The notes under the pieces were generated by a model. It ran no database searches. It was not told where the DNA came from and saw nothing but the letters and a program-made list of their open reading frames with translations. Shown here piece by piece: positions 837 to 60,258 of a stretch of 64,000 nucleotides of DNA. The position numbers and the translations under genes were made by a program. The stretch is from Clostridium polyendosporum. GTDB lineage: Bacteria; Bacillota; Clostridia; Clostridiales; Clostridiaceae. Each line of letters begins with the position of its first letter. The first letter of the stretch is position 1. Where the stretch lies: the NCBI RefSeq assembly GCF_018332455.1, contig NZ_BOPZ01000012.1:31443-95442 (forward strand). The letters are read 5' to 3'.

Positions 837-2093
837 TTATCTTATAAATCTACCTTCACTACCATCAGTTTTAATTGTATAAAAAATATAGCTGTTTTTA
901 TCTGTTATATAAATTGGGAATAAAAAAATTCTATCTTTTACTAAAAATATTTGTCCAGGATAAAGGTTATCCTTTGAAACATTAGATATAGTTTTAGTGT
1001 TTAAATTATACTTCTTTAAGAAAAAGTCATTATTTTCATAATTTCTAACATCGTTTGCGATAAAGTAAATATGGTTTTTATCCAAATTAAATGGTATACA
1101 ATTTGTATTTGTAGAAGCGTATGAGAATAGAGTTTTTTTATTGCAAGTTTTTATGTTATATTGAATCAAATAGACTTTATTATTACTAGAAGTATCCCCC
1201 TTGGTGATATGTGAACGGCTATAATAAATATAATCATTATCTACAATAAAATTTAATATAGTATCATTTAACACCTTGGTCAATCTCGTACCGTCTAAAT
1301 TCATTGAATAAAGGAAAGAAGACCAGTTGTTCGTATTATTCTCAGTGTTTTTAAAATTCATCTGTGTGATAGTTTGAAGATATATTTTATCATTAATCAC
1401 TACTAAGTTAGATACATAAAGTATATCTTCTTTCAATTGAATTGGATCAAGTTTTTGACCATTAATGTGGATTCTAAAAACACATTTTTTTTCAGGTTTT
1501 AAGTAATAAATTATATCTTTATAAATATAATATGAGATACATGTATCGTCAATGTTTATGGTGTCTTCTCCAGTTAAAGAAGTTTTTGTGAGAGTTTCGT
1601 TTAAGGTTATATAGTAAAGAGTATTATTTATTATGCACATCATTTTTCCTGCAGGAATATTAAGTTTCTTCATCATAGTTGAACCATCGGACATTACTCT
1701 ATAAATTTGTTTTTCAAGAGCTATTATTGTAGAAAAATATATATACGGTTCATTATAAGTGATAAACCCTCCATTTCTCATGTTTCCTTGTAAAGTAGGT
1801 TCATAAAAAGTTTTTGATAAAACTTGGCTTGCTGTCATTTCACGAAGTGAAATCTGACTCAATCTCAGTAGGCTCGGTGCCTGCTTAGATTTATTGATAG
1901 GTACAGTTAATGAAGAAGGGCTAAGGGTAATATACTCCTTTAGTTGCTTTTTAGATATATTAGTTGTTTGTTCAATGGCTTGAACAGTGGGTATTACTTT
2001 TAAATACTTAAAATATATTACATAGTGTGAGAAAAAGGCTATAGCAGCTATTATATTATAAATAATGGGAAGTGGTATGTGTTTTTTTTTCAT
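837..2093 (-). CDS. Membrane-anchored hypothetical protein with DUF5050-like beta-propeller repeats; the N-terminal region carries an in-frame copy of the dispersed repeat
   Basis: A 418-aa ORF with an N-terminal hydrophobic anchor. Repeated YxxxxDG…KL motifs match the DUF5050 type. Residues ~70-88 (PSLLRLSQISLREMTASQ) are encoded by repeat copy R1. Confidence 0.6.
   Translation of the reverse strand: MKKKHIPLPIIYNIIAAIAFFSHYVIYFKYLKVIPTVQAIEQTTNISKKQLKEYITLSPSSLTVPINKSKQAPSLLRLSQISLREMTASQVLSKTFYEPTLQGNMRNGGFITYNEPYIYFSTIIALEKQIYRVMSDGSTMMKKLNIPAGKMMCIINNTLYYITLNETLTKTSLTGEDTINIDDTCISYYIYKDIIYYLKPEKKCVFRIHINGQKLDPIQLKEDILYVSNLVVINDKIYLQTITQMNFKNTENNTNNWSSFLYSMNLDGTRLTKVLNDTILNFIVDNDYIYYSRSHITKGDTSSNNKVYLIQYNIKTCNKKTLFSYASTNTNCIPFNLDKNHIYFIANDVRNYENNDFFLKKYNLNTKTISNVSKDNLYPGQIFLVKDRIFLFPIYITDKNSYIFYTIKTDGSEGRFIR
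1833..1888. repeat. Dispersed palindromic repeat copy R1 (modules A+B) lying inside a CDS
   Basis: The sequence gtcatttcacgaagtgaaatctgactcaa + tcagtaggctcggtgcctgcttag matches the intergenic repeat family: an A module tttcacNNNgtgaaa palindrome and a B module ggcWtcgagcc hairpin. Confidence 0.7.
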
Positions 2094-2255
2094 CTAAATC
2101 ACCTTTATTAGTATTTCCCATAGTGGTATTTTCTTAGTATTTTTTTTGATTTAATTTTAGTATAGATAGATAATGATTAAAAATAAGTTAATAGAAATAA
2201 AAAGACTATTAAGATAAAGATAACAGAAGATCAGAGCATATGGTTATAAAAATAA

Positions 2256-2325
2256 AACTGAGCAGGTATCGAACTTGCTCAGTTTTAGCTAGATTTCACT
2301 TTGTGAAGTCGCAATAAACTAAAAG
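2256..2325. repeat. Dispersed repeat copy R2 (modules B+A)
   Basis: The sequence ctgagcaggtatcgaacttgctcag hairpin + agatttcactttgtgaagtcgcaa. Confidence 0.7.
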
Positions 2326-2378
2326 ACAACTTGTATCTTTAGTCGTCTTTGTAATAAGTAATATTAAATAAAACTATA

Positions 2379-2564
2379 CTAAATTATTCCTTCAGTCTTT
2401 AATATATCTTCAAGCTCCTGAACTTTTTCCGTTAGCACTAAGAATTGTTCTTTTAAGTTATCCTTAGATAATTCATTATTATCTAAGCTTTTTTCTATTG
2501 CTTCAACAGTTTGAAGTGCCTCATCAATGTCTTGCTGAGCTATCTTTAGATTTTTTTCATCCAT
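2379..2564 (-). CDS. Small coiled-coil hypothetical protein (~61 aa from MDEKNLKIAQQ…)
   Basis: The ORF has a strong SD (aaggagag) 8 nt before an internal ATG. The peptide is charged and helical. No family was recognised. Confidence 0.4.
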   Translation of the reverse strand: MDEKNLKIAQQDIDEALQTVEAIEKSLDNNELSKDNLKEQFLVLTEKVQELEDILKTEGII

Positions 2565-2604
2565 TAAAAACTCTCCTTTATTTTTGTGAATTAAGTATGC
2601 TATC

Positions 2605-2712
2605 ACAGATACACAACTTTATAATTCAATTGATAATTCATGAAAAAGCGTTGCATGTCGAGGCTATTTTCATGAATTGTTTAAGGATTAAAGCTGTATA
2701 TCTTTATAAGTT
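2605..2712. repeat. Dispersed repeat copy R3 (module C: nested inverted repeats)
   Basis: An outer arm gatacacaactt… and an inner perfect inverted repeat aattcatgaaaa/ttttcatgaatt flank agcgttgcatgtcgaggcta. The element is homologous to 3975-4090. Confidence 0.7.
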
Positions 2713-2814
2713 TTAAATTATTAGTTTCTAAAAGTATAGTTTTATGTTATCACTACTAAATTATCTATGCAAGGCATATATTATATGGAATTTAATAAGT
2801 TTTTGGAGGAAGAT

Positions 2815-3390
2815 ATGATTAATTACATATGGTTTACAATGGTATTACTAGGTATAGCAATAGGAATATTTACTGGTAATGGAGAGCTGATTTCAAAAGC
2901 AATCATAGACTCAGCTTCCTCAACCACTGATTTAATGCTGGGATTAATGGGAGTAATGTGCTTTTGGTGTGGAACAATGAAGGTAGCTGAAAAAAGTGGT
3001 TTAACAGATAAATTAGCCAATCTTTTAAAACCTTTTTTAAGAATACTCTTTAAAGGGGCAGCAAGGGATGATAAGGCTTTAGGTGCAATAGTAATGAATC
3101 TTACAGCTAATATGTTCGGGTTGTCTAATGCGGCAACACCCTTTGGTATAAAAGCTATGGAAGAGATGGACAAGTTAAATGATAAGAAAGAAATGGCTAC
3201 TAATGATATGGCACTTTTTCTTGTAATTAATGCTGCTTGTATACAACTAGTACCTTCAACTGTAATATCTATAAGAGCTGCTGAAGGATCCTCTAATCCA
3301 GGGATTATAATAATTCCAGCTACTATAGCAACAGGAGTAGCTGCTTTAGTGGGAGTTATATGTTGTAAAATCCTTCAGAGGTATTTTTAA
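2815..3390 (+). CDS. spmA: Spore maturation protein A (nucleoside-recognition/GATE domain membrane protein)
   Basis: The protein MINYIWFTMVLLGIAIG…GLMGVMCFWCGTMKVAEKSGL… resembles B. subtilis SpmA. An SD ggagga precedes the ATG at 2815. The gene is paired with spmB. Confidence 0.8.
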   Translation: MINYIWFTMVLLGIAIGIFTGNGELISKAIIDSASSTTDLMLGLMGVMCFWCGTMKVAEKSGLTDKLANLLKPFLRILFKGAARDDKALGAIVMNLTANMFGLSNAATPFGIKAMEEMDKLNDKKEMATNDMALFLVINAACIQLVPSTVISIRAAEGSSNPGIIIIPATIATGVAALVGVICCKILQRYF

Positions 3391-3401
3391 GGAGGATAAA
3401 T

Positions 3402-3923
3402 ATGTTTATATATCTATTAAAGAGCATTATACCTCTTATGTTTATTATTATAATAGCTTATGGTATGGTAACTGGTAAAAAGGTTTATGAATGGTTTGTA
3501 GAAGGGGCAAAGGAAGGACTTAAAGTTAATTATAAAATTTTTCCCTATCTTTTATCTATGATAATAGCTGTTAGAATATTTAAGGAAGCAAGATTGTTGG
3601 ACATGATAAATAACTTTTTAGCTCCAGTGGTAGGTCTTATTGGCCTTCCAAGAGAGATAGTACCTTTAATACTTGTTAAACCTATATCAGGAAGTGGAGC
3701 TTTAGGAGTTTTTACAGAGATTCTTAAGGAATATGGTCCAGATAGTTACATAGGCGTGGTAGCTTCTGTAATAATGGGAACCACAGAGACTATATTTTAT
3801 ACTATAACAATATATTATGGTGCTGTAGGAGTTAAGAAAATAAGGCATACTCTATGGGCTGCAATTATGGCCGATCTTACAGCTATAATAATGGCAGTTA
3901 CTATAGTGAGATATTTTTTGTGA
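3402..3923 (+). CDS. spmB: Spore maturation protein B
   Basis: A 173-aa polytopic membrane protein. The SpmB-like sequence (…LVKPISGSGALGVFTEILKEYGPDSYIGVVASVIMGTTETIFY…) lies immediately downstream of spmA. Confidence 0.85.
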   Translation: MFIYLLKSIIPLMFIIIIAYGMVTGKKVYEWFVEGAKEGLKVNYKIFPYLLSMIIAVRIFKEARLLDMINNFLAPVVGLIGLPREIVPLILVKPISGSGALGVFTEILKEYGPDSYIGVVASVIMGTTETIFYTITIYYGAVGVKKIRHTLWAAIMADLTAIIMAVTIVRYFL

Positions 3924-3926
3924 AGT

Positions 3927-3947
3927 GAGTTACGTAGGTAACTTTTT
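3927..3947 (+). terminator. Intrinsic terminator after spmB (agttacgtaggtaact + TTTTT)
   Basis: A perfect 7-bp palindromic stem followed by a T run. Confidence 0.7.
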
Positions 3948-3949
3948 AC

Positions 3950-4118
3950 TTGCTACCATTTCATAAGATGAAATCTAACTCAAACTATATATACACAACT
4001 TCATAACTGAATTTGTAATTCATGAAAAAGCATTGGATGTCGAGGCTATTTTCATGAATTTTTTTAGGGGTGAAGTTGTGTATCTTTAGTAGGCTCGATG
4101 TCTACTTAACTGAGTTAT
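3950..4118. repeat. Dispersed repeat copy R4 (modules A + C + B, composite)
   Basis: It reads atttcataagatgaaatctaactcaa (A), then atacacaacttca…aattcatgaaaaagcattggatgtcgaggctattttcatgaatt…tgaagttgtgtatc (a complete module C with outer and inner inverted repeats), then taggctcgatgtcta (B). Confidence 0.75.
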
Positions 4119-4292
4119 TGCCATCTAGAAAGTAAAATATGGCTAAAAGTGAATAAGTTTTAGGTTTATTTATTTTTATTGCTATATGATTAAATAATAT
4201 AGATACGATTTGTTAATGTAATTATTTAATAAATATGTAATATTTAATGAGTAAAGGTATGCTACTATATTTATAGATAGGGGGGGAAGTGT

Positions 4293-6687: not shown

Positions 6688-6723
6688 AGATATTCATGGA
6701 TATAGTATTAATAATTAATAAAA

Positions 6724-6751
6724 AAGGCAATTTTAAAAGATTGCCTTTTTT
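6724..6751. terminator. Bidirectional intrinsic terminator (aaggcaa…ttgcctt + TTTTT)
   Basis: A stem-loop flanked by A and T runs lies between the convergent ABC permease and MATE genes. Confidence 0.8.
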
Positions 6752-6757
6752 ATTATT

Positions 6758-6830
6758 GTTATTGCACAAAGTGAAATCTGGCTAAGGCTGAGAGGGCTCG
6801 ATGCCTACTTAACTTGAGTTTTAATCTTTA
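6758..6830. repeat. Dispersed repeat copy R5 (A+B)
   Basis: The sequence ttgcacaaagtgaaatctggctaaggctgagagggctcgatgcctacttaacttgag. Confidence 0.75.
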
Positions 6831-10530: not shown

Positions 10531-10583
10531 AAAGTTAATGATAAAAGTTTTATACTAAAGATACATCACTTTAAACCGTAAAC

Positions 10584-10676
10584 AATTCATGTTAAATAAA
10601 ATTTAATAGGCATCGAGCCTGTTAAATTTGAGCCAGATTTCACTTCGTGAAATGGCAGCAAATAGCCTCGGCATTA
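10584..10676. repeat. Dispersed repeat copy R6 (fragment of C + B + A in inverted orientation)
   Basis: The sequence aattcatgttaaataaaatttaat aggcatcgagcct gttaaatttgagccagatttcacttcgtgaaatggcagcaaatagcctcggca. It is near-identical in order to the copy at 33711-33800. Confidence 0.75.
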
Positions 10677-10849
10677 ATACTTTTTCTAAGGATATATAAG
10701 TTCAATCATTAATGAATCTTAGAGAAAAGCCTGGTAATTCCATAATTTCCATAAAGTTGTTAATTAAATTATGAACTTGTATATCTGAATTATAAGTTCA
10801 GTTATGAAGTTATTTATCTATATTAGACATTAGTTTTAGGAGGATGGTT

Positions 10850-13465: not shown

Positions 13466-13494
13466 TTTATAACATAAACTAATATTATATTTGG
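13466..13494 (+). promoter_or_regulatory. Sigma-A-type promoter driving the metG T-box leader (TTGACA-17-TAATAT)
   Basis: A consensus -35 with a 17-nt spacer and a -10-like hexamer lies just upstream of the T-box leader. Confidence 0.5.
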
Positions 13495-13499
13495 TAAAT

Positions 13500-13818
13500 G
13501 CATTGAAAAGAATAGTAGTAAGGATAAGTGTCTAAAGAGAACTGGATTAGGTGAAAGCCAGTGACAGGTACCTTTATGAAGATGGCCTTGGAGCAGATTT
13601 CCTGAATTTTTTAGGGAAGTACGGGAGCAACCGTTATATTGCAAAGTGATAAAAGCTTAGTGAATAAGTTAAATTAGTTCTTAAAGAATTAGTTAATTAT
13701 TAGTTTGCTAGTGGAGTTACTTAGAGAGATGTTTATCGTGAGATAAGCATAAAGTAGAGTGGTACAGCGTATTTTACGCCTCTACATAGACAATAATGTC
13801 TATGTAGAGGCGTTTTTA
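13500..13818 (+). promoter_or_regulatory. T-box riboswitch leader (Met specifier) with terminator/antiterminator for metG
   Basis: It has an AGAGA element, a specifier-like AUGA at 13575-13578, and a T-box core aaaGUAGAGUGGUACAGCG (consensus AGGGUGGNACCGCG). The GUAGAG is complementary to the 5' arm CUCUAC of the terminator, which gives the antiterminator. The terminator stem gcctctacatagac/gtctatgtagaggc (13777-13812) is followed by UUUUU. Confidence 0.75.
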
Positions 13819-13820
13819 TT

Positions 13821-13855
13821 TGTTGCCATTTCACAAAGTGAAATCTGGCTCAAAT
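13821..13855. repeat. Dispersed repeat copy R7 (module A only), within the metG 5'UTR
   Basis: The sequence tgttgccatttcacaaagtgaaatctggctcaa lies between the T-box terminator and the metG RBS. Confidence 0.7.
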
Positions 13856-13901
13856 TTATATTAATATAGTTAAATGTAGTTACAAAAAGGAGGCAATAAG
13901 A

Positions 13902-18644: not shown

Positions 18645-18689
18645 GAATAACCGAGAATAGTTTTGATTAGTTATATTTACTATAATTTC

Positions 18690-18745
18690 AATTTCATAAA
18701 GTAAAATCTAGATAAAACTGAGCAGACTCGATGTCTGGTCAGCTT
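18690..18745. repeat. Dispersed repeat copy R8 (A+B)
   Basis: The sequence atttcataaagtaaaatctagataaaactgagcagactcgatgtctggtcag. Confidence 0.7.
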
Positions 18746-18952
18746 TATTTTAGGGTTATTGTAAAATATCTTAAATGTATTAAGAATGCTGTGCTTAAAA
18801 TCATAAAGAATAGTGGTATATATGTATGTGAAATGTGTAATTTTATGTTAATAACGGACGAATTAACGGAATTATCTGAATATTAAATTTGACAGTTTGG
18901 AATTATTATGTAATAATTTATATATTCAAGGATGTCAGAGGTGACTATAAAG

Positions 18953-22680: not shown

Positions 22681-22712
22681 GGGAATTCAAAAAATTTGAG
22701 TTCCCTTTATTT
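22681..22712 (+). terminator. Intrinsic terminator after rsmA
   Basis: The stem gggaattcaaa/tttgagttccc followed by TTTATTT. Confidence 0.65.
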
Positions 22713-22776
22713 GTTGCCATTTCATAAAGTGAAATCTAGCTAAAACTGAGCAGACGTGATGTCTGGTCAGTTTTAC
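22700..22776. repeat. Dispersed repeat copy R9 (A+B)
   Basis: The sequence ttgttgccatttcataaagtgaaatctagctaaaactgagcagacgtgatgtctggtcag. Confidence 0.75.
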
Positions 22777-22936
22777 TTTTTAAAAACTTTTATGAATTAT
22801 ATTTTTCTATAAATTTAACTGTTATTAGTGAATTTTTCATTAGTATTAATTAAAAGGTACTAAAAATGAATTTGTAATATAACATTAAAACTATCATATA
22901 ATATAAAGAATAAATGTATGTGGAGGGACTGTTAAG

Positions 22937-24492: not shown

Positions 24493-25077
24493 GTGAATCA
24501 ATTTATTAATAAGAAGCAGCTCGGGGTAACTTTGATACTTATAGGTTTAATGATGGTACTTTTTTTAGCCCAAAAAGGTTTCAATGATAGATTAAAACTT
24601 GTCATGCTTATGGATAGTAATATAACAAACTTAAAAGAGTATAGTATAGGCACGGAAGGATATTCTTATAGCTTGCCAGCAGAATGGACAACTAATCAAA
24701 AGAGTTATCCAGGTAGTTATATTGTTTATCATAACTCTTTTAGAAGCGAGAGCATGGGAATTATAGGATATGTTGAAGTTATGAATTCAAAGGATGGGTT
24801 AGAACATATAACGATTAGTGATGGTAATAAATTACCACAAAATAAGGTGAAAGAATATAAATCATTAAAAACTAAAATAAACGATAAGGAAGGATATAGG
24901 ATATCTTACAAATTAAACTTAGATGAAGGTAAGCTTGTATACGATAACGTTTATTACATTAAAGTAGATGAGGAAAAGTACTTCAAGTTATTATTTAGCG
25001 TTGGAGAGGAGAAGTATAAAGAAAACCTTTTAGCAGTATTTGATGCCATAGTTGAGACTTGTAAGGTCAATAAATAA
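24493..25077 (+). CDS. Hypothetical membrane-anchored protein
   Basis: It has an N-terminal TM (LGVTLILIGLMMVLFLA). A GTG at 24493 lies 6 nt after ggaggg. Confidence 0.5.
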   Translation: MNQFINKKQLGVTLILIGLMMVLFLAQKGFNDRLKLVMLMDSNITNLKEYSIGTEGYSYSLPAEWTTNQKSYPGSYIVYHNSFRSESMGIIGYVEVMNSKDGLEHITISDGNKLPQNKVKEYKSLKTKINDKEGYRISYKLNLDEGKLVYDNVYYIKVDEEKYFKLLFSVGEEKYKENLLAVFDAIVETCKVNK

Positions 25078-25080
25078 AGT

Positions 25081-25205
25081 TGAGCAGGCATCGAGCCTAT
25101 TTAACTTGAGTCAGATTTCACTTCGTGAAATGATGGCAAATAAAGCTGAGAGGACATCGAGTCTAATCAGTTTTAACCAGGTTTCACTTTGTAAAATTGC
25201 AGGAA
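25081..25205. repeat. Dispersed repeat copy R10 (two tandem B+A units)
   Basis: The pattern is gagcaggcatcgagcct…cagatttcacttcgtgaaatgatggcaaat, then gagaggacatcgagtct…caggtttcactttgtaaaattgcagg. Confidence 0.75.
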
Positions 25206-25298
25206 ATAAGATTTGATTTAATATTCTAATAGTATTATAATTTATCTTAGAGTTACGGGAGAAGCATGTGCTTCTCCTATTTTTAAGGTGGTGAAAGT

Positions 25299-33170: not shown

Positions 33171-33686
33171 ATGAATAACGATAAGCTAATAAGATTATCA
33201 GGAATATTGCACGAAAGCCTTGTCAATGGACCAGGTATAAGAAGGGTCTTCTTTTCACAGGGATGTAAGCATAATTGCCCTCAGTGCTTTAATCCTGAAA
33301 CCCACAGTTTTGAGGGGGGAGAGTTAAGAAGCATGGATGTACTTATAGAAGATGTTAAGAAAAATTCAATGATAAGTGGAATAACCTTTAGTGGAGGAGA
33401 CCCCCTAGAGCAAGCAGAAGAATTTGCATATATGGCAAAAAAATTTAAAGACATAGGACTTAATATATGGTGTTATACAGGATATACCTTTGAATACATA
33501 ATAAATCACTTAAATGAGAAAAGAGAATGGAAGAACCTAATAGAAAATATTGATATTTTGGTTGATGGTCGCTTTGAAATGGATAAAAAGGATGAAACAT
33601 TAAAGTTTAGAGGATCTTCTAATCAACGAATTATAGATGTTAAAAAGAGTTTAGAAGTAGGAAAAGTAGTAACACTCTCTTATTAA
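33171..33686 (+). CDS. nrdG: Anaerobic ribonucleotide reductase activating protein (radical SAM)
   Basis: It has the Cys motif CKHNCPQC and the …GITFSGGDP… block. The start is at the ATG at 33171, preceded by aaaggtga. Confidence 0.9.
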   Translation: MNNDKLIRLSGILHESLVNGPGIRRVFFSQGCKHNCPQCFNPETHSFEGGELRSMDVLIEDVKKNSMISGITFSGGDPLEQAEEFAYMAKKFKDIGLNIWCYTGYTFEYIINHLNEKREWKNLIENIDILVDGRFEMDKKDETLKFRGSSNQRIIDVKKSLEVGKVVTLSY

Positions 33687-33689
33687 AGA

Positions 33690-33850
33690 TAAACAACTTC
33701 AATCTTTAAATAATTCCTGTTAAATAAAATTTAATAGGCATCGATCCTATTAAATTTGAACCAGATTTCACCTTGTGAAATGGCAGCATAATAGCCTCGA
33801 CATGCAATGCTTTTTCAGGAATTATAAGTTTAGTTATGAAGTTGTGTATC
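33690..33850. repeat. Dispersed repeat copy R11: a nested composite in which module C is interrupted by modules B+A
   Basis: The outer arms aaacaacttcaat…atgaagttgtgtatc and the inner arms aattcctg…caggaatt enclose aggcatcgatcct (B) and ccagatttcaccttgtgaaatggcagc (A). Confidence 0.75.
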
Positions 33851-33870
33851 TATAATTTAATATGTAAAAA

Positions 33871-33901: not shown

Positions 33902-33929
33902 ACTCCATTTAATTGATACTAATTGATAC

Positions 33930-34018
33930 TAATTCACAAAGTGAGATTAGACTAAAATCCAACTGTTTGGTAGCTGTTGAATTTTATTTCATAAAAAACC
34001 TAGCTAAAACTTAGAGGA
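33930..34018. repeat. Dispersed repeat copy R12 (two degenerate A modules), preceded by the short tandem repeat attgatacta ×2
   Basis: The pattern ttcacaaagtgagattagactaaaa…atttcataaaaaacctagctaaaacttagagg. Confidence 0.6.
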
Positions 34019-34020
34019 CA

Positions 34021-36647: not shown

Positions 36648-36715
36648 TAAAATTAGGACTGATATCTATATCTTCAGTTAAATTTTACTTTTTTAAATGG
36701 TAGCAAATAAAAGCA

Positions 36716-38754: not shown

Positions 38755-39689
38755 TGATCAGGAGAGGAATAGTAATGGAGGTTAAAGGGAAAAAGGTTCT
38801 TCTTATGACTTCGGCAGGAGAATTTACTATGGTTAAGGTAGGAAAAGAATTGCCAGTCAGGGGAAGAGAATATGAAGGAAAGGTTCTGGTGAAAAGTACT
38901 ATAAACAAGAGAATAATTGCAGCAGTAGCCTCTTTTGTACTTATTTTTACTTTGGGAGCAAAAGATTATTATACCCCAGTTAAGGCGTTAGAGATTTATG
39001 CAAGTTCTAATATAAAACTGGAACTTAATAGATGGGATAGAGTTATAGAAGCATCTCCTCTTAATGATAATGGTAGGAAGGTTCTTTCTAAAATAGCCTT
39101 AAATAACAGAGATATTGAGAAAGCTGTTAATATGATTTTAGAACAAGTTTCAAAGGAGAATATTTTAGGAGGTCAGCATCAGATATCTATTAATTCAATA
39201 AATGGAAAGTTAAATATTGACAACCTTAAAAAAATTATAGAAGAAAAAGGATTAAAGATCATTGATATCAACTCTTATAATGAAAATAATAAAATAAAAA
39301 GTCAACAGAGTGAAGTAATTAATGAGGAAAAGAGTAATAGTAAAAATAATGAAGAAAAAAATTTAAGTGAAAATAAATCGAATAAATCTATAGATAATAA
39401 AGGTAATAATGGACGGGAAGTTAATAATAGTAACAAGCATAGTATCTCACAAGACCAAGACACTAATAAGGATGTGAATTATAGTAAAAATAGCCAAGAT
39501 AATAAAATCAAGAGTTCTAGTTCATCTAGTAATGAAAAAGAAATAAAAGGTAATTCAAAACAACAATTAAAAGATACGGGAATAGAAAAGACTGATGGTA
39601 ATTATAAACATAATTTACAGGATACTCAAGGGAGCAATGAGCAATCAAATAGTTCTGAAAAAGAAAATAATACAATAAAGAAAAAGTAA
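38754..39689 (+). CDS. rsgI: Anti-sigma-I factor RsgI-like: RsgI N-terminal domain, single TM, then an Asn/Ser/Lys-rich low-complexity extracytoplasmic tail
   Basis: The N-terminus MIRRGIVMEVKGKKVLLMTSAGEFTMVKV matches the RsgI_N pattern (M.RGII.E…V.LLT.DGEF). A TM spans about aa 53-70. The C-terminal ~150 aa have no recognisable globular sensor domain. Confidence 0.65.
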   Translation: MIRRGIVMEVKGKKVLLMTSAGEFTMVKVGKELPVRGREYEGKVLVKSTINKRIIAAVASFVLIFTLGAKDYYTPVKALEIYASSNIKLELNRWDRVIEASPLNDNGRKVLSKIALNNRDIEKAVNMILEQVSKENILGGQHQISINSINGKLNIDNLKKIIEEKGLKIIDINSYNENNKIKSQQSEVINEEKSNSKNNEEKNLSENKSNKSIDNKGNNGREVNNSNKHSISQDQDTNKDVNYSKNSQDNKIKSSSSSSNEKEIKGNSKQQLKDTGIEKTDGNYKHNLQDTQGSNEQSNSSEKENNTIKKK

Positions 39690-39711
39690 AAATGAATAGG
39701 AATAGACTTAC

Positions 39712-39779
39712 TCGCTTTTAGTTAGATCTTACTTTGTAAAATAGCAGTAAATAAGGTGATGGGGACAGTACGTCCCCAG
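39712..39779. repeat. Dispersed repeat copy R13 (degenerate A) plus the hairpin ggggacagtacgtcccc
   Basis: The pattern ttagatcttactttgtaaaatagcag, then a GC hairpin. The hairpin may act as the asnS (-) terminator. Confidence 0.5.
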
Positions 39780-44619: not shown

Positions 44620-44622
44620 AAA

Positions 44623-51920: not shown

Positions 51921-51954
51921 AAACTCATCTAGTCTTTGCTAGATGAGTTTTTTT
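51921..51954. terminator. Bidirectional terminator (aaactcatctag…ctagatgagttt + T7)
   Basis: A 12-bp perfect stem. Confidence 0.85.
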
Positions 51955-51955
51955 A

Positions 51956-51996
51956 CTTGCCATCATTTCACAAAGTGAAGTCTGGCTAAAACTTAA
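51956..51996. repeat. Dispersed repeat copy R14 (module A)
   Basis: The sequence ttgccatcatttcacaaagtgaagtctggctaaaac. Confidence 0.7.
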
Positions 51997-52021
51997 TAGA
52001 TTTAATAACTATTAAATTTTA

Positions 52022-54172
52022 TTACTTAGTATTCTTAATATCTGATGGCTTTACATAGCTTAATATTTCTTGTTTGATTTTTTCTGCTTCTTCTGAAAGC
52101 TGTGCATTACCGGAATCTTGGGATGTTAATTTTTCGCTTAAGAGCATCATTACTAAGTTTTCAAAGACATTATGAATGTTATTTTCTCCATCCTTGGATC
52201 CAGTGGTGATAAGGGTTTTCGGAACAATATCAATCTTGGAGGTTTTTATAGCGTCAGCAAAGTTATTCATTATTTCTTGAACTATCTTGAATTGAGCTCC
52301 ACCAAAGGCATTAACCTGCTCTTTTGCAGCAATGGCCTTTGATATACCAACTCTAGCCTCTCTATCAGCATCGGCTTCCCCCACAGTTTTAATCTTAAAG
52401 GATTCTGCTTCACCAGTCTGCTTGAGTCTGAAAGCCTCAGCTTCAGCTTGCTGCTTTGTTTGATATGCAGAAGCTTCTGCTTGTTGTTTTAATCTAAAAG
52501 CTTCAGCTTCTGCTTGTTGTTTAACTTTGTATGCTTCAGCCTCTGATAATCTTTGTATTTTCTCAGCATCTTGTCTAGATTTCATAAGTTCAGCTTTACC
52601 TTGGTTTTCTTGAATTCTAATATTAATGTCTGATTCAGTAAGTGAAGTTTGCTGTTTTGCAATAGCCTGAGCTTCTTTTAATTCTTTTTCCTTTTCGGCA
52701 GCGGTCTGTTGAGTGGCATAGGTTTCAAGTTGTTCTTTAGCAATTTGTCTTGAACGCAGCTGAGTTAATATTTGTTCAATGTTACTATCATTCTTTGAAC
52801 TTGTTGGTGTACCAATTAATACTTCTTCAAGTTCTAGATTATAATGTGAGAATTTAGCTTTCATTTCTACTGAAGATTGGTTTTGGATTTCATTTCTTTG
52901 TTGAATTAATTCTATGAGCGTCTTTGTTTGACCAATGTTTTTAAAGTATGCCGATACCATTGGGTCTAGGGTTTGATCAACTAGCATTTTAATATCACCG
53001 AACCTTTGAATAACCATAGGAGCTTTCTTATAATCGATATGAAATACTACTGATAATGGAAGTGACGGTTCAAAGGCATCCTTAGATATTAAGCTAACTT
53101 CCTTAAGATTTTCATCATATTTATGATTTCCATTTTGATTACTTATCCACTTCAATATTACATTAGTTGTTGGAACTTGGATTATGCTACCTGCATAGGT
53201 GTTAAAAGCGTATTTACCTGGCATAAGTGCTTCCCCCCAGACACCTCGATAACCCTTTTGGACAAGCTCGCCGTGTTTATAATCTTCACCAGAAGAGTCT
53301 TCCCCTTTAGCGCCCATATAGGATACAACTACACCAACATATCCAACAGGTATTATAGTTTTGGAGATATATTCGACTGTAGCAAATAATCTATTTATAA
53401 AGTAAGAACCATCAGCGAGTACTTGATACTGTCTACCTCTATATCCGCCTGCTTTTAAAAATCTTTCGGGATCTTGAAAATTGTTGTGGTAATTTTCGTC
53501 ACTTGGATCATCTCCAACAGTAGGGCATATGATATTGTCTTTTCCTAGTGATGGACCGTCATGTACTGTTACTATACCAACTAAATCACTTTCACCTTGA
53601 ATTACAATAGGATCAAACCCATTCCTTATGGCTATCTTTTGGGCCATTTCTAAAATTGTTTTCTGTTCACTGCTGTTACCCATTGGTAAGTAATACGTTT
53701 TATTTTCAGTAATTATTATAAATTGTGCAAGGTTAAAGGAGTAGGTACCTTCACGGATGATGCCTCTTTGAGGACCTCTTTGTCCACCATTTTGAATAAA
53801 AGCTCTAACATCTTGGAAGTTATTACACTGAGGAACTATTTTGCCTAAGGTTTGAGTTGGTTCTAAGGGTTTGCCATCTCTTGAAAATACATAAGCAATT
53901 TTTCCCTGAGGTATTGTAACTAAAGGGACAGTGTGTATTTTATAGAGTAATGGAGTTTTAAAGTGAATACCACCTCTTAGTACATCGGGTTGATAACCGG
54001 CTTCACCATTTAATGCAATGATTTGTTCCTTTAGTGAGCCTTTTGATGACCACCATTTTTCTACAATAGCAACCTTATCATTTGGAATGATTTTGAATCC
54101 TGATAGCCAAACTAAGAAAAAGAAACCAAGGATTCCTATTCCGGTATTGATTAATAATGTTGTTTCGACCAT
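52022..54172 (-). CDS. Flotillin-like SPFH/band-7 domain membrane protein (YqiK-like) with C-terminal tandem Ala/Glu/Gln repeats
   Basis: An N-terminal TM, then an SPFH-like region. The C-terminal region has about four ~18-aa repeats (QQAEAEAFRLKQQAEASAYQTKQQAEAEAFRLKQTGEAESFKIK). Confidence 0.7.
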   Translation of the reverse strand: MVETTLLINTGIGILGFFFLVWLSGFKIIPNDKVAIVEKWWSSKGSLKEQIIALNGEAGYQPDVLRGGIHFKTPLLYKIHTVPLVTIPQGKIAYVFSRDGKPLEPTQTLGKIVPQCNNFQDVRAFIQNGGQRGPQRGIIREGTYSFNLAQFIIITENKTYYLPMGNSSEQKTILEMAQKIAIRNGFDPIVIQGESDLVGIVTVHDGPSLGKDNIICPTVGDDPSDENYHNNFQDPERFLKAGGYRGRQYQVLADGSYFINRLFATVEYISKTIIPVGYVGVVVSYMGAKGEDSSGEDYKHGELVQKGYRGVWGEALMPGKYAFNTYAGSIIQVPTTNVILKWISNQNGNHKYDENLKEVSLISKDAFEPSLPLSVVFHIDYKKAPMVIQRFGDIKMLVDQTLDPMVSAYFKNIGQTKTLIELIQQRNEIQNQSSVEMKAKFSHYNLELEEVLIGTPTSSKNDSNIEQILTQLRSRQIAKEQLETYATQQTAAEKEKELKEAQAIAKQQTSLTESDINIRIQENQGKAELMKSRQDAEKIQRLSEAEAYKVKQQAEAEAFRLKQQAEASAYQTKQQAEAEAFRLKQTGEAESFKIKTVGEADADREARVGISKAIAAKEQVNAFGGAQFKIVQEIMNNFADAIKTSKIDIVPKTLITTGSKDGENNIHNVFENLVMMLLSEKLTSQDSGNAQLSEEAEKIKQEILSYVKPSDIKNTK

Positions 54173-59067: not shown

Positions 59068-59109
59068 AATTTTCCCTCCCGTATTAATTAAGTAGCGCCC
59101 TATATATGC

Positions 59110-59143
59110 AAAAAAAGGTCACAGGAATACCCATGACCTTTTT
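59110..59143 (-). promoter_or_regulatory. Leader terminator hairpin (attenuator segments 3:4) upstream of the ABC exporter operon
   Basis: On the minus strand the sequence is aaggtca…tgaccttt followed by a T7 run, 40-75 nt upstream of the ABC start codon. Confidence 0.55.
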
Positions 59144-59153
59144 GGTAATATAA

Positions 59154-59181
59154 AAGGTCATGAGCAATAGCCCATGACCTT
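59154..59181 (-). promoter_or_regulatory. Leader hairpin (segments 1:2). Its 3' arm catgacctt can instead pair with segment 3 aaggtcatg, forming an antiterminator
   Basis: A 9-bp perfect stem aaggtcatg/catgacctt. The arm sequence is repeated verbatim in the downstream terminator, which allows mutually exclusive structures. Confidence 0.55.
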
Positions 59182-59209
59182 AATTACCGATTAAAATGTA
59201 TAAGAAAGA

Positions 59210-59317
59210 TTAATTATCAGTAATCGTCCACGTAGAGATAGGGCTATTGTTAATATATATTAAAGAATTAGTCTTTATAACGATGCTAAATCCAAGTTGA
59301 TATCTTACTGTTAACAT
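59210..59317 (-). CDS. Candidate 35-aa leader peptide (MLTVRYQLGFSIVIKTNSLIYINNSPISTWTITDN) upstream of the ABC exporter operon
   Basis: A very strong SD aaaggaggt lies 8 nt upstream of the ATG. The ORF ends about 29 nt before the first leader hairpin. It is embedded in the larger 63-aa ORF of the track. Confidence 0.4.
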   Translation of the reverse strand: MLTVRYQLGFSIVIKTNSLIYINNSPISTWTITDN

Positions 59318-59549
59318 ATTTCCTACCTCCTTTTTGTATAATTTATTTAATCGTATAAATTGATTAATTCTATTATATACATATTTTGAAATTAATGTCA
59401 AATAAACACAAAAAAATTTAAGTTAAAGAAATTGTAGTTTATAGTTTAGAAATAGATTTATATATTGGTTATTTTTTAACGAAATATTCTTTTACTATTA
59501 TGCACTGTTTTGATATGTTATTACTATTTATAAAGTAAGGAGTAAAGAT

Positions 59550-60116
59550 ATGAAGAAGAGGATGTTTATGTTTTTAGGAATAATAATAGCACTAGTTGTA
59601 GTTCTTGAAATGTTTATATTTTCCCTTCCCATGATTTCCAGACCAAAGAAAGCAGATGTAATAATAATATTAGGGTGCAAACTTTCCAAAGGGAGTCCAG
59701 GGTTATTTTTGCAGAAGCGAATAGAAAAGGGAATGGAACTTTTTAAGCAAGGATATGGACGTTATATCATAGTTTCTGGAGGAAAAGAAAAAGGAGAAAA
59801 GATTTCAGAAGCTGAGAGCATGTATAGGGTTTTAATTAAATATGGGATAAATGAAGATAGTATAATTTTGGAGGATAAGTCTCAAAATACTTCCGCCAAT
59901 ATCAAAAATTGCACTGAAATAATGAGGGATAGACAATTTAACAGTTCTATAATAGTTTCTAATTTTTTTCACTTAAGAAGAGTATGGATACTAGCTAAGA
60001 GAAATAATATTGATGCTACTTATGATGGGATATTTATTTGGAGATACTTCTGGAAAGAGATACAAGGGTCTATAAGAGAAATACCAGCTATAATTAAGGA
60101 TTCTATATATAGATAA
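59550..60116 (+). CDS. DUF218/YdcF (SanA/ElyC)-family membrane-anchored protein
   Basis: An N-terminal TM. The DUF218 blocks …ADVIIILGCKL… and …YIIVSGGKE… are present. Confidence 0.75.
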   Translation: MKKRMFMFLGIIIALVVVLEMFIFSLPMISRPKKADVIIILGCKLSKGSPGLFLQKRIEKGMELFKQGYGRYIIVSGGKEKGEKISEAESMYRVLIKYGINEDSIILEDKSQNTSANIKNCTEIMRDRQFNSSIIVSNFFHLRRVWILAKRNNIDATYDGIFIWRYFWKEIQGSIREIPAIIKDSIYR

Positions 60117-60129
60117 GTCATAAATAAAG

Positions 60130-60258
60130 TTGGGCAGGTATCCAGCCTATTAAAGATACACAACTTTAATCAGTAAACAATTCATAAAAATAAGAATTTA
60201 GGCATCAGCTCTATTAACTTTGAACCAGATTTTACTTCATGAAATGATAGCAAATAAA
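60130..60258. repeat. Dispersed repeat copy R15 (B + C-fragment + B + A)
   Basis: The pattern ttgggcaggtatccagcct…agatacacaacttt…aattcataaaaa…taggcatcagctct…ccagattttacttcatgaaatgatagcaaat. Confidence 0.7.

What the first reader, a model, noticed from the sequence alone, without database searches (positions are those of the whole stretch)
1833..60258. A modular family of palindromic intergenic repeats, at least 15 copies in 64 kb
Three recurring modules occur alone, in combination, in either orientation and sometimes in tandem.
- Module A is a ~30-bp element centred on the palindrome TTTCAC-NNN-GTGAAA (ttgccatttcacaaagtgaaatctggctaaaac).
- Module B is a short GC-richer hairpin (ctgagcaggcatcgagcctat / gagaggacatcgagtct / tagtaggctcgatgtcta).
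- Module C is a ~100-bp element with nested inverted repeats. Its outer arms are atacacaacttcat…atgaagttgtgtatc and its inner arms aattcatgaaaa…ttttcatgaatt. It loops over cattggatgtcgaggctatt.

Copies sit at 1833, 2256, 2605, 3950, 6758, 10584, 13821, 18690, 22700, 25081 (tandem), 33690, 33930, 39712, 51956 and 60130. Most lie immediately 3' of genes, often just after the terminator. At least one, at 13821, is in a 5'UTR. In behaviour this is REP/BIME- or MITE-like, but the sequence is not E. coli REP. The density, about 1 copy per 4 kb, is striking for a housekeeping region. I cannot tell from sequence alone whether this family has already been named in the host species.
Basis: seen in the sequence. 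Interest (0 to 1): 0.7.

Follow-up and report, generated by a model that had tools for sequence, protein, structure and literature searches.

The report
Two nested mobile repeat families, Clostridium
This stretch of the Clostridium polyendosporum chromosome is peppered with two kinds of tiny non-coding mobile DNA elements that insert into each other and sit right behind gene terminators; the type is familiar in bacteria, but this family appears undescribed.

Summary
All 15 listed positions carry family members, and I found two more loci, giving 17 loci, 1,864 bp, 2.9% of the window and about 17% of its intergenic DNA.

The three "modules" resolve into two elements.
- **AB** is a unit of about 66-70 bp. 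It has two different hairpins in fixed order, A (GCCATTTCAC-AAA-GTGAAATCTGGC) then B (TGAGCAGGC-TCGAT-GCCTGCTCA), bounded by TTTATTT on both sides, with no terminal inverted repeats.
- **C** is a classical MITE of about 100 bp with 15-16-bp terminal inverted repeats and TA flanks.

AB occurs inside C, C inside AB, and AB in head-to-tail tandem.

The window is Clostridium polyendosporum JCM 30710. Contigs from a sister species (about 86% nucleotide identity) carry the same modules at partly different sites. One is a clean filled-versus-empty C site with a TA duplication. Relatives at 74-77% identity have none.

Ten of 17 A ends abut a terminator hairpin plus T-tract, always at the A end.

Best reading: two non-autonomous transposable elements, C of the TA-duplicating type and AB integrating in one orientation after hairpin plus TTTATTT. 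No transposase lies in the window, and the genome could not be retrieved. This is a new member of a known kind, of moderate interest.

The parts
1822..1900 (+). AB unit (A hairpin then B hairpin), lying in frame inside the annotated CDS 837-2093(-). It covers residues ~65-91, between the N-terminal membrane segment and the DUF5050 domain.
   Evidence: nhmmer AB profile E=1.9e-20. The ORF is 100% identical to C. polyendosporum CPJCM30710_16790. DUF5050 covers residues 102-391.
2248..2323 (-). AB unit. Its A end abuts the terminator-like hairpin and T-tract of the small minus-strand ORF 2379-2606.
   Evidence: nhmmer E=2.8e-20; upstream hairpin -10 kcal/mol followed by TTAGTTTATT; ORF.
2602..2710 (+). 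C element (MITE) standing alone in a divergent intergenic region. Right flank is TA; left flank is CA.
   Evidence: nhmmer C profile E=4.8e-32; DNA fold -14.8 kcal/mol, z=-3.6; flanks.
3944..4182 (+). Composite: A (3944-3986), a complete C inserted between A and B (3986-4093, flanked by TA..TA), B (4086-4111), then a degenerate second AB unit (4113-4182). It starts right after the hairpin and T-tract downstream of gene 3402-3923.
   Evidence: (C fold -22 kcal/mol, z=-8.6).
6747..6824 (+). AB unit. Its A end abuts the T-tract of the bidirectional terminator between the convergent genes 5011-6687(+) and MatE 6849-8189(-).
   Evidence: nhmmer E=7.4e-19; hairpin -18.8 kcal/mol. In sister contig L018 the same terminator is occupied on its other side and in the opposite orientation.
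10553..10822 (-). Composite: C element carrying an AB unit (10590-10664) in its apical region, plus further degenerate C material (10684-10787) and a duplicated arm (10786-10822). It lies between pepP and the next gene.
   Evidence: It is absent from sister contig L018, which has only TA-AAGA-TA at this place.
13814..13858 (+). Solo A module directly after the T-box terminator hairpin and T-tract, 43 nt before the metG start codon.
   Evidence: A profile E=1.3e-12; T-box at 13494-13786; hairpin -29.5 kcal/mol.
18685..18754 (+). AB unit whose A left part is degenerate, between the DUF445 gene and tatD.
   Evidence: nhmmer E=2.5e-17.
22704..22782 (+). AB unit directly after the ksgA terminator hairpin and TTTATTT.
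   Evidence: nhmmer E=1.5e-20; hairpin -18.9 kcal/mol. Sister contig L027 has an A-B-C(right arm)-B composite at this locus.
25068..25211 (-). Head-to-tail tandem of two AB units (25068-25141 and 25135-25211) that share one AAATAAA junction. The B end overlaps the stop codon of gene 24463-25077.
   Evidence: Sister contig L027 has a single, chimeric-looking unit at the orthologous site.
33680..33858 (-). C element (flanked by TA..TA) with an AB unit (33718-33794) inserted after its apical hairpin at GAGGCTAT|. The junction is the same as in the 10553 composite.
   Evidence: (family D5, 83% identity). The two nested AB units are 92% identical.
33922..34019 (+). Degenerate AB unit or units, about 25 nt downstream of a bidirectional terminator.
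   Evidence: nhmmer E=4.8e-6.
36672..36712 (-). Degenerate solo A module abutting the terminator and T-tract of minus-strand gene 36777-37916.
   Evidence: I22; hairpin -18.8 kcal/mol.
39682..39757 (-). Degenerate AB unit whose A end follows the hairpin downstream of the minus-strand class II tRNA-synthetase gene 39784-41175 (Pfam tRNA-synt_2).
   Evidence: nhmmer E=3.7e-13; hairpin -12.7 kcal/mol; Pfam tRNA-synt_2 on 39784-41175.
51952..52027 (+). AB unit with an AT-rich B stem, directly after the terminator and T-tract of gene 51102-51908.
   Evidence: nhmmer E=7.3e-15; hairpin -18.3 kcal/mol.
60119..60258 (-). Composite A-B-C(right arm)-B. Its A end abuts the terminator and T-tract of the minus-strand Mur-ligase-family gene 60303-61706. 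It is collinear with a composite at a different locus in sister contig L027.
   Evidence: Mur ligase domains.
63409..63473 (-). Fragment of C (left arm and loop) with a TA flank, downstream of the gene 62560-63390 (PuR_N and Pribosyltran domains).
   Evidence: nhmmer E=1.2e-4; flanks; Pfam domains.

Best explanation
The repeats are two families of small, non-coding, non-autonomous mobile DNA elements. They belong to Clostridium polyendosporum and a sister species, and they have repeatedly inserted next to genes and into each other.

**Element C** (about 82-105 bp) is a classical MITE. It has terminal inverted repeats (T/A)AGATACACAACTTCA, an inner hairpin, and duplicates a TA dinucleotide on insertion. 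This is the signature of elements moved in trans by a DDE transposase of the IS630/Tc1-mariner type.

**Element AB** (about 66-70 bp) has no terminal inverted repeats. It carries a sequence-conserved hairpin A near its left end and a structure-conserved hairpin B near its right end. TTTATTT lies on both sides.

AB integrates in one orientation immediately after a hairpin followed by a T-run ending in TATTT. In practice that means the T-tract of an intrinsic terminator, the small apical hairpin of C, or the B hairpin of another AB unit (which gives tandems). The A end always faces the hairpin.

The enzyme is inferred to be encoded elsewhere in the genome. It would recognise the two hairpin ends either as a single-strand (HUH/IS200-IS605-like) transposase or as a bcr1-like TTTAT-associated recombination system.

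Insertion just past the terminator is nearly harmless to the host, which explains the density.

**Shown:**
- the anatomy, the nesting and the hairpin conservation;
- the terminator adjacency and its polarity;
- site differences between the two species;
- one filled/empty C site with a TA duplication.

**Inferred:**
- the enzymes;
- whether the left TTTATTT is target or element;
- any effect on transcripts.
For: **The repeats are real and non-random.**
- The core palindrome occurs 11 times against 0.25 expected.
- Profiles find 17 loci.
- 16 of 17 loci are intergenic, P about 1e-11.

**Mutual nesting with identical junctions.**
- C lies between A and B at 3944-4112.
- AB lies inside C at 10553-10822 and 33680-33858, with the same junction; the nested AB units are 92% identical.
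- The composite A-B-C(right arm)-B recurs at unrelated loci in the window and in L027.
- A head-to-tail tandem shares one AAATAAA junction.

**C is a MITE.**
- The 16-nt ends are inverted repeats, and its DNA fold is -22 kcal/mol with z=-8.6.
- TA flanks 10 of 11 observable ends.
- L027 has an 82-nt C element flanked by TA..TA where the window has AACAA-TA-TAAAGG with a single TA.

**AB structure.**
- Its DNA fold is -24 kcal/mol with z about -9 on either strand.
- Six of the 12 pairs of hairpin B show changes on both sides. Covariation is 0.22 against 0.14 for shuffles (0 of 500 reach it), and 85% of cells are paired.

**Target and polarity of AB.**
- 10 of 17 A ends directly follow a stable hairpin plus T-tract, and a further 4 follow the hairpin of C or B. 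No B end does.
- All 4 intergenic TTTATTT sites preceded by a non-repeat hairpin carry an AB, against 0 of 25 sites without a hairpin.
- Roughly a fifth of the terminator sides in the window are occupied.

**Site differences between species at about 86% identity.**
- L018 has an AB immediately after the metG terminator T-tract, where the window has none.
- The same bidirectional terminator next to MatE is occupied on opposite sides and in opposite orientations in the two species.
- One unit in L027 corresponds to two units in the window at 25068.
- Four of six sister-species contig ends fall inside the repeats.

**Restricted distribution.**
- The 22-kb syntenic loci of C. manihotivorum and Clostridium sp. 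C8-1-8, and contig L028, have no copy.
- Pattern scans of species-representative genomes, metagenomes and viral contigs gave only isolated chance hits in unrelated taxa.

**No known RNA family** matches the repeats.
Against: - No transposase gene is in the window, and the rest of the genome could not be fetched. No autonomous partner is therefore known for either element.
- For AB, no filled/empty pair with both junctions was obtained. The flanking TTTATTT copies do not co-vary between left and right, so a target duplication is unproven.
- Some differences between the species look like deletions of ancestral copies rather than new insertions. Examples are the metG leader and the pepP spacer.
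- AB paralogues average only 70% identity. The family is old, and current activity is not shown.
- AB orientation shows no bias with respect to replication direction (9 plus, 8 minus). This does not fit the lagging-strand preference known for IS200/IS605 elements.
- The compensatory changes in hairpin B largely separate two subfamilies, so they represent few independent events.
- Selection alone, meaning survival only in harmless places, could contribute to the terminator association.
Confidence: 0.7

Rival explanations
1. The elements are host-serving structured motifs of the REP/BIME or SPRITE kind. They would be kept behind terminators by selection because they back up termination, protect 3' ends from exonucleases or bind a nucleoid protein. 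They would spread mainly by recombination or gene conversion rather than by a dedicated transposase.
For: - B plus UUUUAUUU has the form of an intrinsic terminator, and the crude scan calls two B hairpins terminator-like.
- Most copies are just 3' of genes.
- Some copies are conserved at orthologous sites across about 14% divergence.
- Hairpin structure is maintained by compensatory change.
- Paralogues are old, with 70% mean identity.
Against: - Copies lie after the terminator's T-tract, so they would mostly not be transcribed.
- The nesting of AB in C and of C in AB, the TA duplication at a filled/empty site, and independent occupation of opposite sides of one terminator in two species are insertion events, not products of selection.
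- Copies also occur in a coding region, in a 5' leader and at a divergent promoter region.
- This reading is compatible with later co-option of a mobile element, so it is not fully exclusive of the best explanation.
Confidence: 0.15
2. AB is specifically a miniature derivative of an IS200/IS605-family or RAYT-type single-strand (HUH tyrosine) transposon. In that case A and B are the left-end and right-end sub-terminal hairpins, TATTT is the target after which it inserts, and there is no target duplication.
For: - AB has no terminal inverted repeats, but has one hairpin next to each end.
- Insertion is strictly polar, after a T-run ending in TATTT.
- Head-to-tail tandems share one TTTATTT, as expected if the element's own right end recreates the target.
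- Left and right TTTATTT copies do not co-vary as a duplication would.
Against: - There is no orientation bias relative to the replication direction (9 plus, 8 minus in a window with uniformly rising GC skew).
- The two hairpins are unrelated in sequence, whereas IS608-type ends share their hairpin (from my knowledge of IS608).
- AB has neither the GTAG nor the CGTC tag of REPs (PMC3733652).
- No tnpA or RAYT gene could be looked for.
- A requirement for a hairpin in the target is not a known property of this family.
Confidence: 0.25
3. The copies are broken ends of known insertion sequences (solo termini) left by decay of full-length elements.
For: C has IS-like terminal inverted repeats. Fragments and half-elements exist at 60146-60192 and 63409-63473.
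Against: - Units have constant, complete boundaries and both ends.
- Their size of 66-105 bp leaves no room for coding remnants.
- No transposase fragment lies beside any of the 17 loci.
- There is no blastn match in plasmid or phage records.
Confidence: 0.05
4. The A palindrome TTTCAC-N3-GTGAAA is the operator of a transcription factor, and the copies mark a regulon.
For: A is conserved in sequence rather than by covariation, as protein-binding palindromes are.
Against: - Copies lie 3' of genes behind terminators, in both orientations relative to downstream genes. They are always joined to B and are nested in C.
- Their sites differ between sister species next to conserved housekeeping genes.
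Confidence: 0.03

Closest known systems
bcr1 (group A Bacillus cereus repeats)
   Same: Like AB, bcr1 is a Firmicute, lineage-restricted, non-coding interspersed repeat.
- It folds into two independent stem-loops kept by compensatory changes.
- It is flanked by a direct repeat of a T-rich pentamer (TTTAT).
- Its sites differ between close relatives.
[quoted passage not shown]

AB has two stem-loops, TTTATTT at both ends and species-variable sites.
   Different: bcr1 is about 155 bp, against about 66-70 bp for AB. Sequence homology was not testable because no bcr1 sequence was available here. I did not find tight, one-orientation abutment to terminator hairpins, or mutual nesting with a TA-MITE, described for bcr1 in the papers read.
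RUP of Streptococcus pneumoniae, as the example of TA-duplicating IS630-type MITEs
   Same: Like C, RUP is an element of about 100 bp with terminal inverted repeats and target duplications. It is non-coding and intergenic (PMC3184786). That RUP duplicates TA and is thought to be moved by an IS630-type transposase rests on my own knowledge. C has 15-16-bp inverted ends and a TA duplication shown by a filled/empty pair.
   Different: There is no sequence relation to C that I could test. The partner IS of C is unknown. C additionally serves as a landing site for AB and itself lands inside AB.
REP/BIME elements and REPINs of Proteobacteria (mobilised by RAYT transposases)
   Same: Like these, the family consists of short palindromic extragenic units at high density. 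They lie mostly after gene 3' ends and occur in mosaic combinations. Mobilisation by a single-strand transposase acting on hairpins is a candidate mechanism.
   Different: AB has no GTAG or CGTC tag. It forms no inverted doublets of the same palindrome, but two unlike hairpins in fixed order. It is AT-rich rather than GC-rich. RAYT presence is untestable here (PMC3733652).
BOX and SPRITE elements of Streptococcus pneumoniae
   Same: BOX is modular, with box modules in varying arrays. [quoted passage not shown] Here too modules combine, and B plus a T-run is terminator-like.
   Different: The modularity here results from nested insertion of two separate elements, not from variable numbers of an internal module. 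AB sits after a pre-existing terminator rather than being the terminator itself.
Group IIC introns (retroelements that home to sites just after terminator hairpins)
   Same: Both show one-orientation insertion immediately downstream of an intrinsic-terminator stem-loop. The intron property is taken from my own knowledge.
   Different: AB is 66-70 nt with no ribozyme domains and no ORF. Rfam found no intron match. This is an analogy of target choice only.

Membership tests
MITE (classical, DDE-mobilised), applied to element C | Terminal inverted repeats of about 15-30 bp | tested here: met
   (T/A)AGATACACAACTTCA at both ends, matching at 15 of 16 positions; outer stem in the DNA fold.
MITE (classical, DDE-mobilised), applied to element C | Target-site duplication shown by a filled versus empty site | tested here: met
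   L027 has TA-[82 nt]-TA, while the window has a single TA at 26036-26039. TA flanks 10 of 11 observable ends. This rests on one clean pair only.
MITE (classical, DDE-mobilised), applied to element C | Small, non-coding and multi-copy | tested here: met
   Length is 82-105 bp. There are 7 pieces in 64 kb plus copies in sister contigs. A genome-wide count was not possible.
MITE (classical, DDE-mobilised), applied to element C | A related autonomous IS with the same ends | not testable with these tools
   The genome DNA is not retrievable. No transposase is in the window. There are no plasmid or phage matches.
MITE (classical, DDE-mobilised), applied to element AB | Terminal inverted repeats | tested here: not met
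   The left end TTTATTTGCTGCC and the right end CTCAGTTTTATTT are direct repeats, not inverted ones. The hairpins are internal.
MITE (classical, DDE-mobilised), applied to element AB | Target-site duplication | tested here: inconclusive
   TTTATTT or TATTT lies on both sides in most copies, and at the insertion point inside C. However, left and right copies do not co-vary. The only lineage-specific insertion (L018, after metG) shows just its left junction.
REP / BIME / REPIN | Imperfect palindrome of 20-40 nt tagged by GTAG or CGTC at one end | tested here: not met
   A is a 25-nt imperfect palindrome without either tag, and B likewise. The definition is taken from PMC3733652.
REP / BIME / REPIN | Units paired as inverted doublets of the same palindrome | tested here: not met
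   A is always followed by the unrelated hairpin B in the same orientation. Tandems are head-to-tail.
REP / BIME / REPIN | Associated RAYT gene flanked by the repeats | not testable with these tools
   The rest of the genome is unavailable, and none is in the window.
bcr1-like repeats (B. cereus group A) | Two independent stem-loops maintained by compensatory changes | tested here: met
   There are two hairpins. B has 6 of 12 pairs changed on both sides, with covariation above all 500 shuffles.
bcr1-like repeats (B. cereus group A) | Flanking direct repeats of TTTAT | tested here: met
   TTTATTT, which contains TTTAT, lies at both ends of most copies. Whether it is duplicated on insertion is unresolved.
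bcr1-like repeats (B. cereus group A) | Sequence homology to the bcr1 consensus | not tested
   No bcr1 sequence was available. The original paper (PMC524882) is not held.
IS200/IS605-derived miniature elements (PATE-type) | Sub-terminal hairpins at both ends, no inverted termini, and insertion 3' of a fixed short target without duplication | tested here: inconclusive
   The hairpins and the absence of inverted termini are met. Polar insertion after ...TATTT is seen. Whether there is a duplication is unresolved.
IS200/IS605-derived miniature elements (PATE-type) | Orientation bias with respect to replication (lagging-strand template) | tested here: not met
   There are 9 plus-strand and 8 minus-strand A copies in a window with monotonic GC skew. 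The sample is small.
Any Rfam RNA family | Covariance-model match at or near the gathering score | tested here: not met
   Only the T-box leader passes the threshold. Permissive scans of repeat-rich stretches hit nothing on the repeats themselves.

The most novel reading that the evidence does not exclude
AB could be a terminator-homing miniature element. Under this reading, a 66-nt non-coding unit is integrated by an enzyme, or an RNA-mediated step, that reads a structure (any stable hairpin followed by a T-run ending in TATTT) rather than a plain sequence. It always goes in with the same end facing the hairpin.

That would explain three things:
- its presence behind about a fifth of the terminators in the window;
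- its insertion after the apical hairpin of C;
- its self-targeting, which produces tandems.

Target choice of this kind is known for group IIC introns, but to my knowledge not for a miniature DNA repeat. It would therefore imply a new type of partner enzyme.
Probability: 0.25. Interest if true: 0.65.

Novelty: new member of a known kind. Interest (0 to 1): 0.45.

Why it matters
**Practical consequences.**
- The family covers about a sixth of the intergenic DNA in this window.
- It breaks short-read assemblies of the sister species at the repeats.
- It has altered a protein C-terminus (Lgt in the sister species).
- It has added about 26 residues to a membrane-anchored protein.
- It sits in the metG T-box leader.

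Any annotation, assembly or 3'-UTR and terminator analysis of this clade therefore needs a model of these repeats.

**Scientific interest.** The strict one-orientation abutment of AB to terminator hairpins, together with self-nesting, gives a compact natural system. It could be used to ask how a TIR-less hairpin element chooses its target, a question still open for bcr1, BOX and many REP-like families.

If the targeting proves to be structure-directed, the partner enzyme would be of interest as a site-selective integrase.

Tried and rejected
**Fetching more of the genome.**
- Exact-sequence look-ups of window proteins (MetRS, KsgA) and of the 100%-identical NCBI protein P0121 all returned nothing.
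- No genome-wide census was therefore possible.

**Collection scans with A-module patterns.**
- Species-representative genomes gave 17 isolated hits in unrelated taxa.
- JGI metagenomes gave 4 chance hits in contigs of 39-50% GC.
- Viral contigs gave none.
- A scan with the C terminal repeat hit only coding sequence of viruses at 49% GC.
- These patterns match only 5-6 of the 17 window copies and none of the sister-species copies. They exclude abundant same-consensus families elsewhere, not diverged ones.

**Other database searches.**
- blastn of the C::AB composite against plasmid and phage records found no match.
- Rfam at gathering and permissive thresholds found nothing on the repeats. The many weak hits at 33860-33905 are the neighbouring bidirectional terminator.

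**Looking for clean empty sites for AB.**
- The metG leader and the pepP spacer in L018 look like remnants or deletions, not virgin sites.
- The metG 3' insertion in L018 is cut by the contig end.

**Readings considered and dropped.**
- Transcription-factor regulon.
- CRISPR or integron attC arrays.
- Group II intron remnants: no ribozyme match, and the units are only about 66 nt.
- Local segmental duplication: the copies are dispersed, average 70% identity, and are present in another species.

**Homologues of the ORF that contains an AB copy.**
- Only the protein itself was found.
- An insertion-versus-no-insertion protein alignment could therefore not be made.

**Literature.**
- The original bcr1 paper is not held.
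- No paper in the library mentions repeats of C. polyendosporum.

Full report

Yes. The core palindrome TTTCACNNNGTGAAA (at most 1 mismatch) occurs 11 times, against 0.25 expected from shuffles. Direct- and inverted-repeat searches group the listed positions into families of 35-119 nt at 60-100% identity, in both orientations.

They add a degenerate unit at 4113-4182, a solo A at 36672-36712 and a C fragment at 63409-63473.

In total there are 17 A copies, about 14 B copies and 7 C pieces at 17 loci. These cover 1,864 bp, which is 2.9% of the window and 16.6% of its non-coding DNA. Sixteen of the 17 loci are intergenic although only 17.6% of the window is (P about 1e-11).

**2. Anatomy**

A and B are not independent modules. 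In 11-12 copies they form one unit in fixed order and orientation, with the consensus:

TTTATTT-GCTGCCATTTCACAAAGTGAAATCTGGCT-aAAAc-TGAGCAGGCTCGATGCCTGCTCAG-TTTTATTT

- **Fold.** As single-stranded DNA the consensus folds into two adjacent hairpins at -24 kcal/mol, z about -9, on either strand.
- **Hairpin A** is conserved as sequence.
- **Hairpin B** is conserved as structure. Six of its 12 pairs show changes on both sides and 85% of cells are paired. Whole-structure covariation is 0.22, against 0.14 in shuffles (0 of 500 reach it) and at most 0.14 for slid partners. Caveat: the compensatory changes mostly separate a GC-type stem from an AT-type stem, so they represent few independent events.
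- **AB has no terminal inverted repeats.**

C is a different element. It has 15-16-nt terminal inverted repeats (T/A)AGATACACAACTTCA and an inner 12-bp hairpin (AATTCATGAAAA/TTTTCATGAATT). Its apical small hairpin contains TCGAG. Its DNA fold is -22 kcal/mol, z=-8.6.

**3. Nesting**

- At 3944-4112 a complete C, flanked by TA..TA, lies between A and B of one AB unit.
- At 33680-33858 and 10553-10822 an AB unit lies inside C, just after C's apical hairpin (GAGGCTAT|). The junction is the same in both, and the two nested AB units are 92% identical. This composite has therefore itself been copied.
- A further composite, A-B-C(right arm)-B, is collinear between window 60119-60258 and the start of sister-species contig L027, at an unrelated locus.
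- At 25068-25211 two AB units lie head to tail and share one AAATAAA junction.

**4. Organism and distribution**

Two window ORFs are 100% identical to proteins of Clostridium polyendosporum (locus tag prefix CPJCM30710, on a 95,442-nt contig). The record's DNA could not be fetched. The window is a housekeeping region and contains no transposase. Genes matched include:
- methionine-tRNA ligase behind a T-box leader;
- TatD-family, RNase M5 and RsmA/KsgA genes;
- Lgt, anaerobic ribonucleotide reductase (NRDD) and a class II tRNA synthetase;
- a Mur-ligase-family gene and a purine-repressor-like gene.

The closest available DNA is three Logan contigs from other sequencing runs: L018, L019 and L027. 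They are about 86% identical in nucleotides, so they come from a sister species. They carry A, B and C modules, and four of their six ends fall inside a module, as expected when short-read assembly breaks at multi-copy repeats.

A contig at 77% identity (L028) has no copy. Neither do the syntenic 22-kb loci of C. manihotivorum and Clostridium sp. C8-1-8 at 74%, although the corresponding window segment has six loci.

Pattern scans found only isolated chance hits in unrelated taxa. They covered 185,579 species-representative genomes, the JGI metagenomes and viral contigs. Plasmid and phage records have no match, and Rfam has no family for the repeats. No paper in the library deals with repeats of this species.

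**5. Evidence of insertion**

(a) *C, clean filled/empty pair.* In L027 an 82-nt C-family element flanked by TA..TA lies in the last codons of lgt:
- L027: AACAA-TA-[ATATGGATAAGC...TTATTTATCTT]-TA-TAAAGG
- Window: AACAA-TA-TAAAGG, at 26036-26039

This is a 2-bp TA duplication. TA flanks 10 of 11 observable C ends.

(b) *AB, lineage-specific insertion.* In L018 and L019 an AB begins immediately after the metG terminator T-tract (GAGTTTTATTT|TCTGCAATTTTAC...). The window has GGGTTCTATTCTTTTTTAGAG with no trace of A, and the outgroups also lack it. The contig ends inside the element, so the right junction is unknown.

(c) *One terminator, two independent occupations.* The bidirectional terminator between the 5011-6687 gene and MatE carries an AB on its plus side in the window. 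In L018 it carries one on its minus side. In both cases the A end touches the T-tract of the respective strand.

(d) *Copy number.* The window's two tandem units correspond to one chimeric-looking unit in L027, which suggests unequal recombination.

(e) *Differences that look like losses rather than gains.* The metG-leader copy seems partly deleted in L018. The 270-bp composite at 10553-10822 corresponds in L018 to TA-AAGA-TA, which is either a footprint-like remnant or a deletion.

AB paralogues average 70% identity, and an orthologous pair is 79% identical. Most amplification is therefore old, with a few later events.

**6. Target rule for AB**

I folded the 58 nt upstream of each A end.
- Ten of 17 A ends directly follow a stable hairpin plus T-run, that is an intrinsic terminator. 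These include the T-box terminator of the metG leader.
- Two follow the B hairpin plus TTTATTT of a preceding unit.
- Two follow C's apical hairpin plus TATTT.
- No B end has a terminator next to it.

Among 31 intergenic TTTATTT sites outside repeat interiors, six are preceded by a hairpin. Four of those are terminators carrying an AB, and two are B hairpins themselves. None of the 25 sites without a hairpin carries one.

Roughly a fifth of the directional terminator sides detectable in the window are occupied. AB orientation follows the local terminator, not the replication direction (9 plus, 8 minus).

**7. Most likely mechanism**

C behaves as a TA-duplicating MITE with terminal inverted repeats, moved in trans by an IS630/Tc1-type DDE transposase. 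The anatomy and the duplication are shown. The enzyme is inferred from established knowledge of TA-duplicating elements.

AB behaves as a hairpin-ended, TIR-less, non-autonomous element. It integrates with fixed polarity right after a hairpin followed by a T-run ending in TATTT. Because its own right end (B hairpin plus TTTATTT) recreates such a site, tandems arise. Because C's apex resembles one, AB lands in C.

Two enzyme models fit:
- a single-strand HUH transposase (IS200/IS605- or RAYT-like), which would insert 3' of TATTT without duplication;
- a bcr1-like TTTAT-associated recombination with duplication.

The data cannot separate them. The absence of replication-strand bias and the unlike hairpins speak somewhat against the first. 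The lack of co-variation between the left and right TTTATTT speaks somewhat against the second.

Landing just past the terminator is nearly neutral for the host, which would allow the high density. Selection probably sharpens the pattern but cannot by itself explain abutment to the nucleotide. A secondary host role, such as backup termination or 3'-end protection, is possible and untested.

**8. Comparison with known systems**

- **bcr1 of the Bacillus cereus group** is the closest analogue of AB. It has two stem-loops with compensatory changes, TTTAT direct repeats, strain-variable sites and no known enzyme (PMC3184786, PMC6199540, PMC6542083, PMC3446304). Homology was not testable.
- **RUP-type TA-duplicating MITEs** are the closest analogue of C.
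- **REP/BIME** membership fails on the tag and on the doublet organisation (PMC3733652).
- **BOX and SPRITE** share modularity and terminator likeness, but not the anatomy.
- **Group IIC introns** share only the choice of target.

**9. Verdict**

The finding is a real, dense and apparently undescribed pair of miniature mobile elements. It is confined, as far as can be seen, to C. polyendosporum and a sister species. It is a new member of a well-known kind.

The unusual point worth following is the structure-linked, polar, terminator-abutting insertion of AB and its reciprocal nesting with C.

Interest is moderate (0.45). The main limits are that the whole genome could not be searched, no partner enzyme is known, and no two-sided empty site was obtained for AB.

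Noticed in passing
window 1822-1900, inside ORF 837-2093(-): One AB unit lies in frame inside an annotated 418-aa protein (C. polyendosporum CPJCM30710_16790). It encodes about 26 residues (…INKSKQAPSLLRLSQISLREMTASQVLSK…) between the N-terminal membrane segment and the DUF5050 domain. The protein has no other homologue at E<=1e-10, so an insertion-free version could not be compared.
   Followed up: partly
L027 3317-3398 versus window 26036-26039: In the sister species a C-family MITE sits in the last codons of lgt. It changes the Lgt C-terminus (…INNNMDKQPHN* instead of …INNIKGRLVKGEK*) and separates two genes that overlap in the window. This is the clean filled/empty pair with a TA duplication.
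   Followed up: yes
L018 about 3900-3925, versus window 10553-10822: Where the window has the 270-bp C::AB composite, the sister contig reads TA-AAGA-TA. AAGA is the first four bases of the element's end. This could be a Tc1/IS630-style excision footprint or just a deletion remnant.
   Followed up: partly
window 13494-13786: There is a T-box leader (Rfam RF00230, 106 bits) upstream of metG. A solo A module has been tolerated between its terminator and the start codon, so it is part of the read-through 5'UTR.
   Followed up: partly
L018 1-78 and 10564-10602; L019 3571-3609; L027 1-125: Four of six ends of the sister-species short-read contigs stop inside a repeat module. This is indirect evidence that the family is multi-copy genome-wide in that organism.
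   Followed up: partly
window 23780-23839: A 15-bp unit (GATACAAAGAGAGAA) is repeated three times in tandem inside the DUF7922 membrane-protein gene. This gene is only 76% identical in protein between the two species, while MetRS is 95% identical.
   Followed up: no
L018 6720-8075: The sister species has an extra 451-aa gene (Cu_amine_oxidN1/DUF2334 domains) between ubiB and the metG leader. The window lacks it.
   Followed up: no
L018 about 1560-1625: A short C-like element (ATATACAACCTCAG…TTAAAGTTACGTATTTAT) lies in the MatE-ACT spacer of the sister species. It is absent from the window at 8232-8315, so it may be another lineage-specific MITE copy.
   Followed up: no
window B loops (e.g. 22752-22766) and C apex (4030-4050): The loop region of B (GGCTCGATGCC) and the apex of C (GATGTCGAGGCTAT) share a TCGA(G/T)-centred motif, matching at about 9 of 13 positions when B is reversed. 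This may be chance or a shared recognition feature. AB inserts immediately 3' of this apex in C.
   Followed up: no
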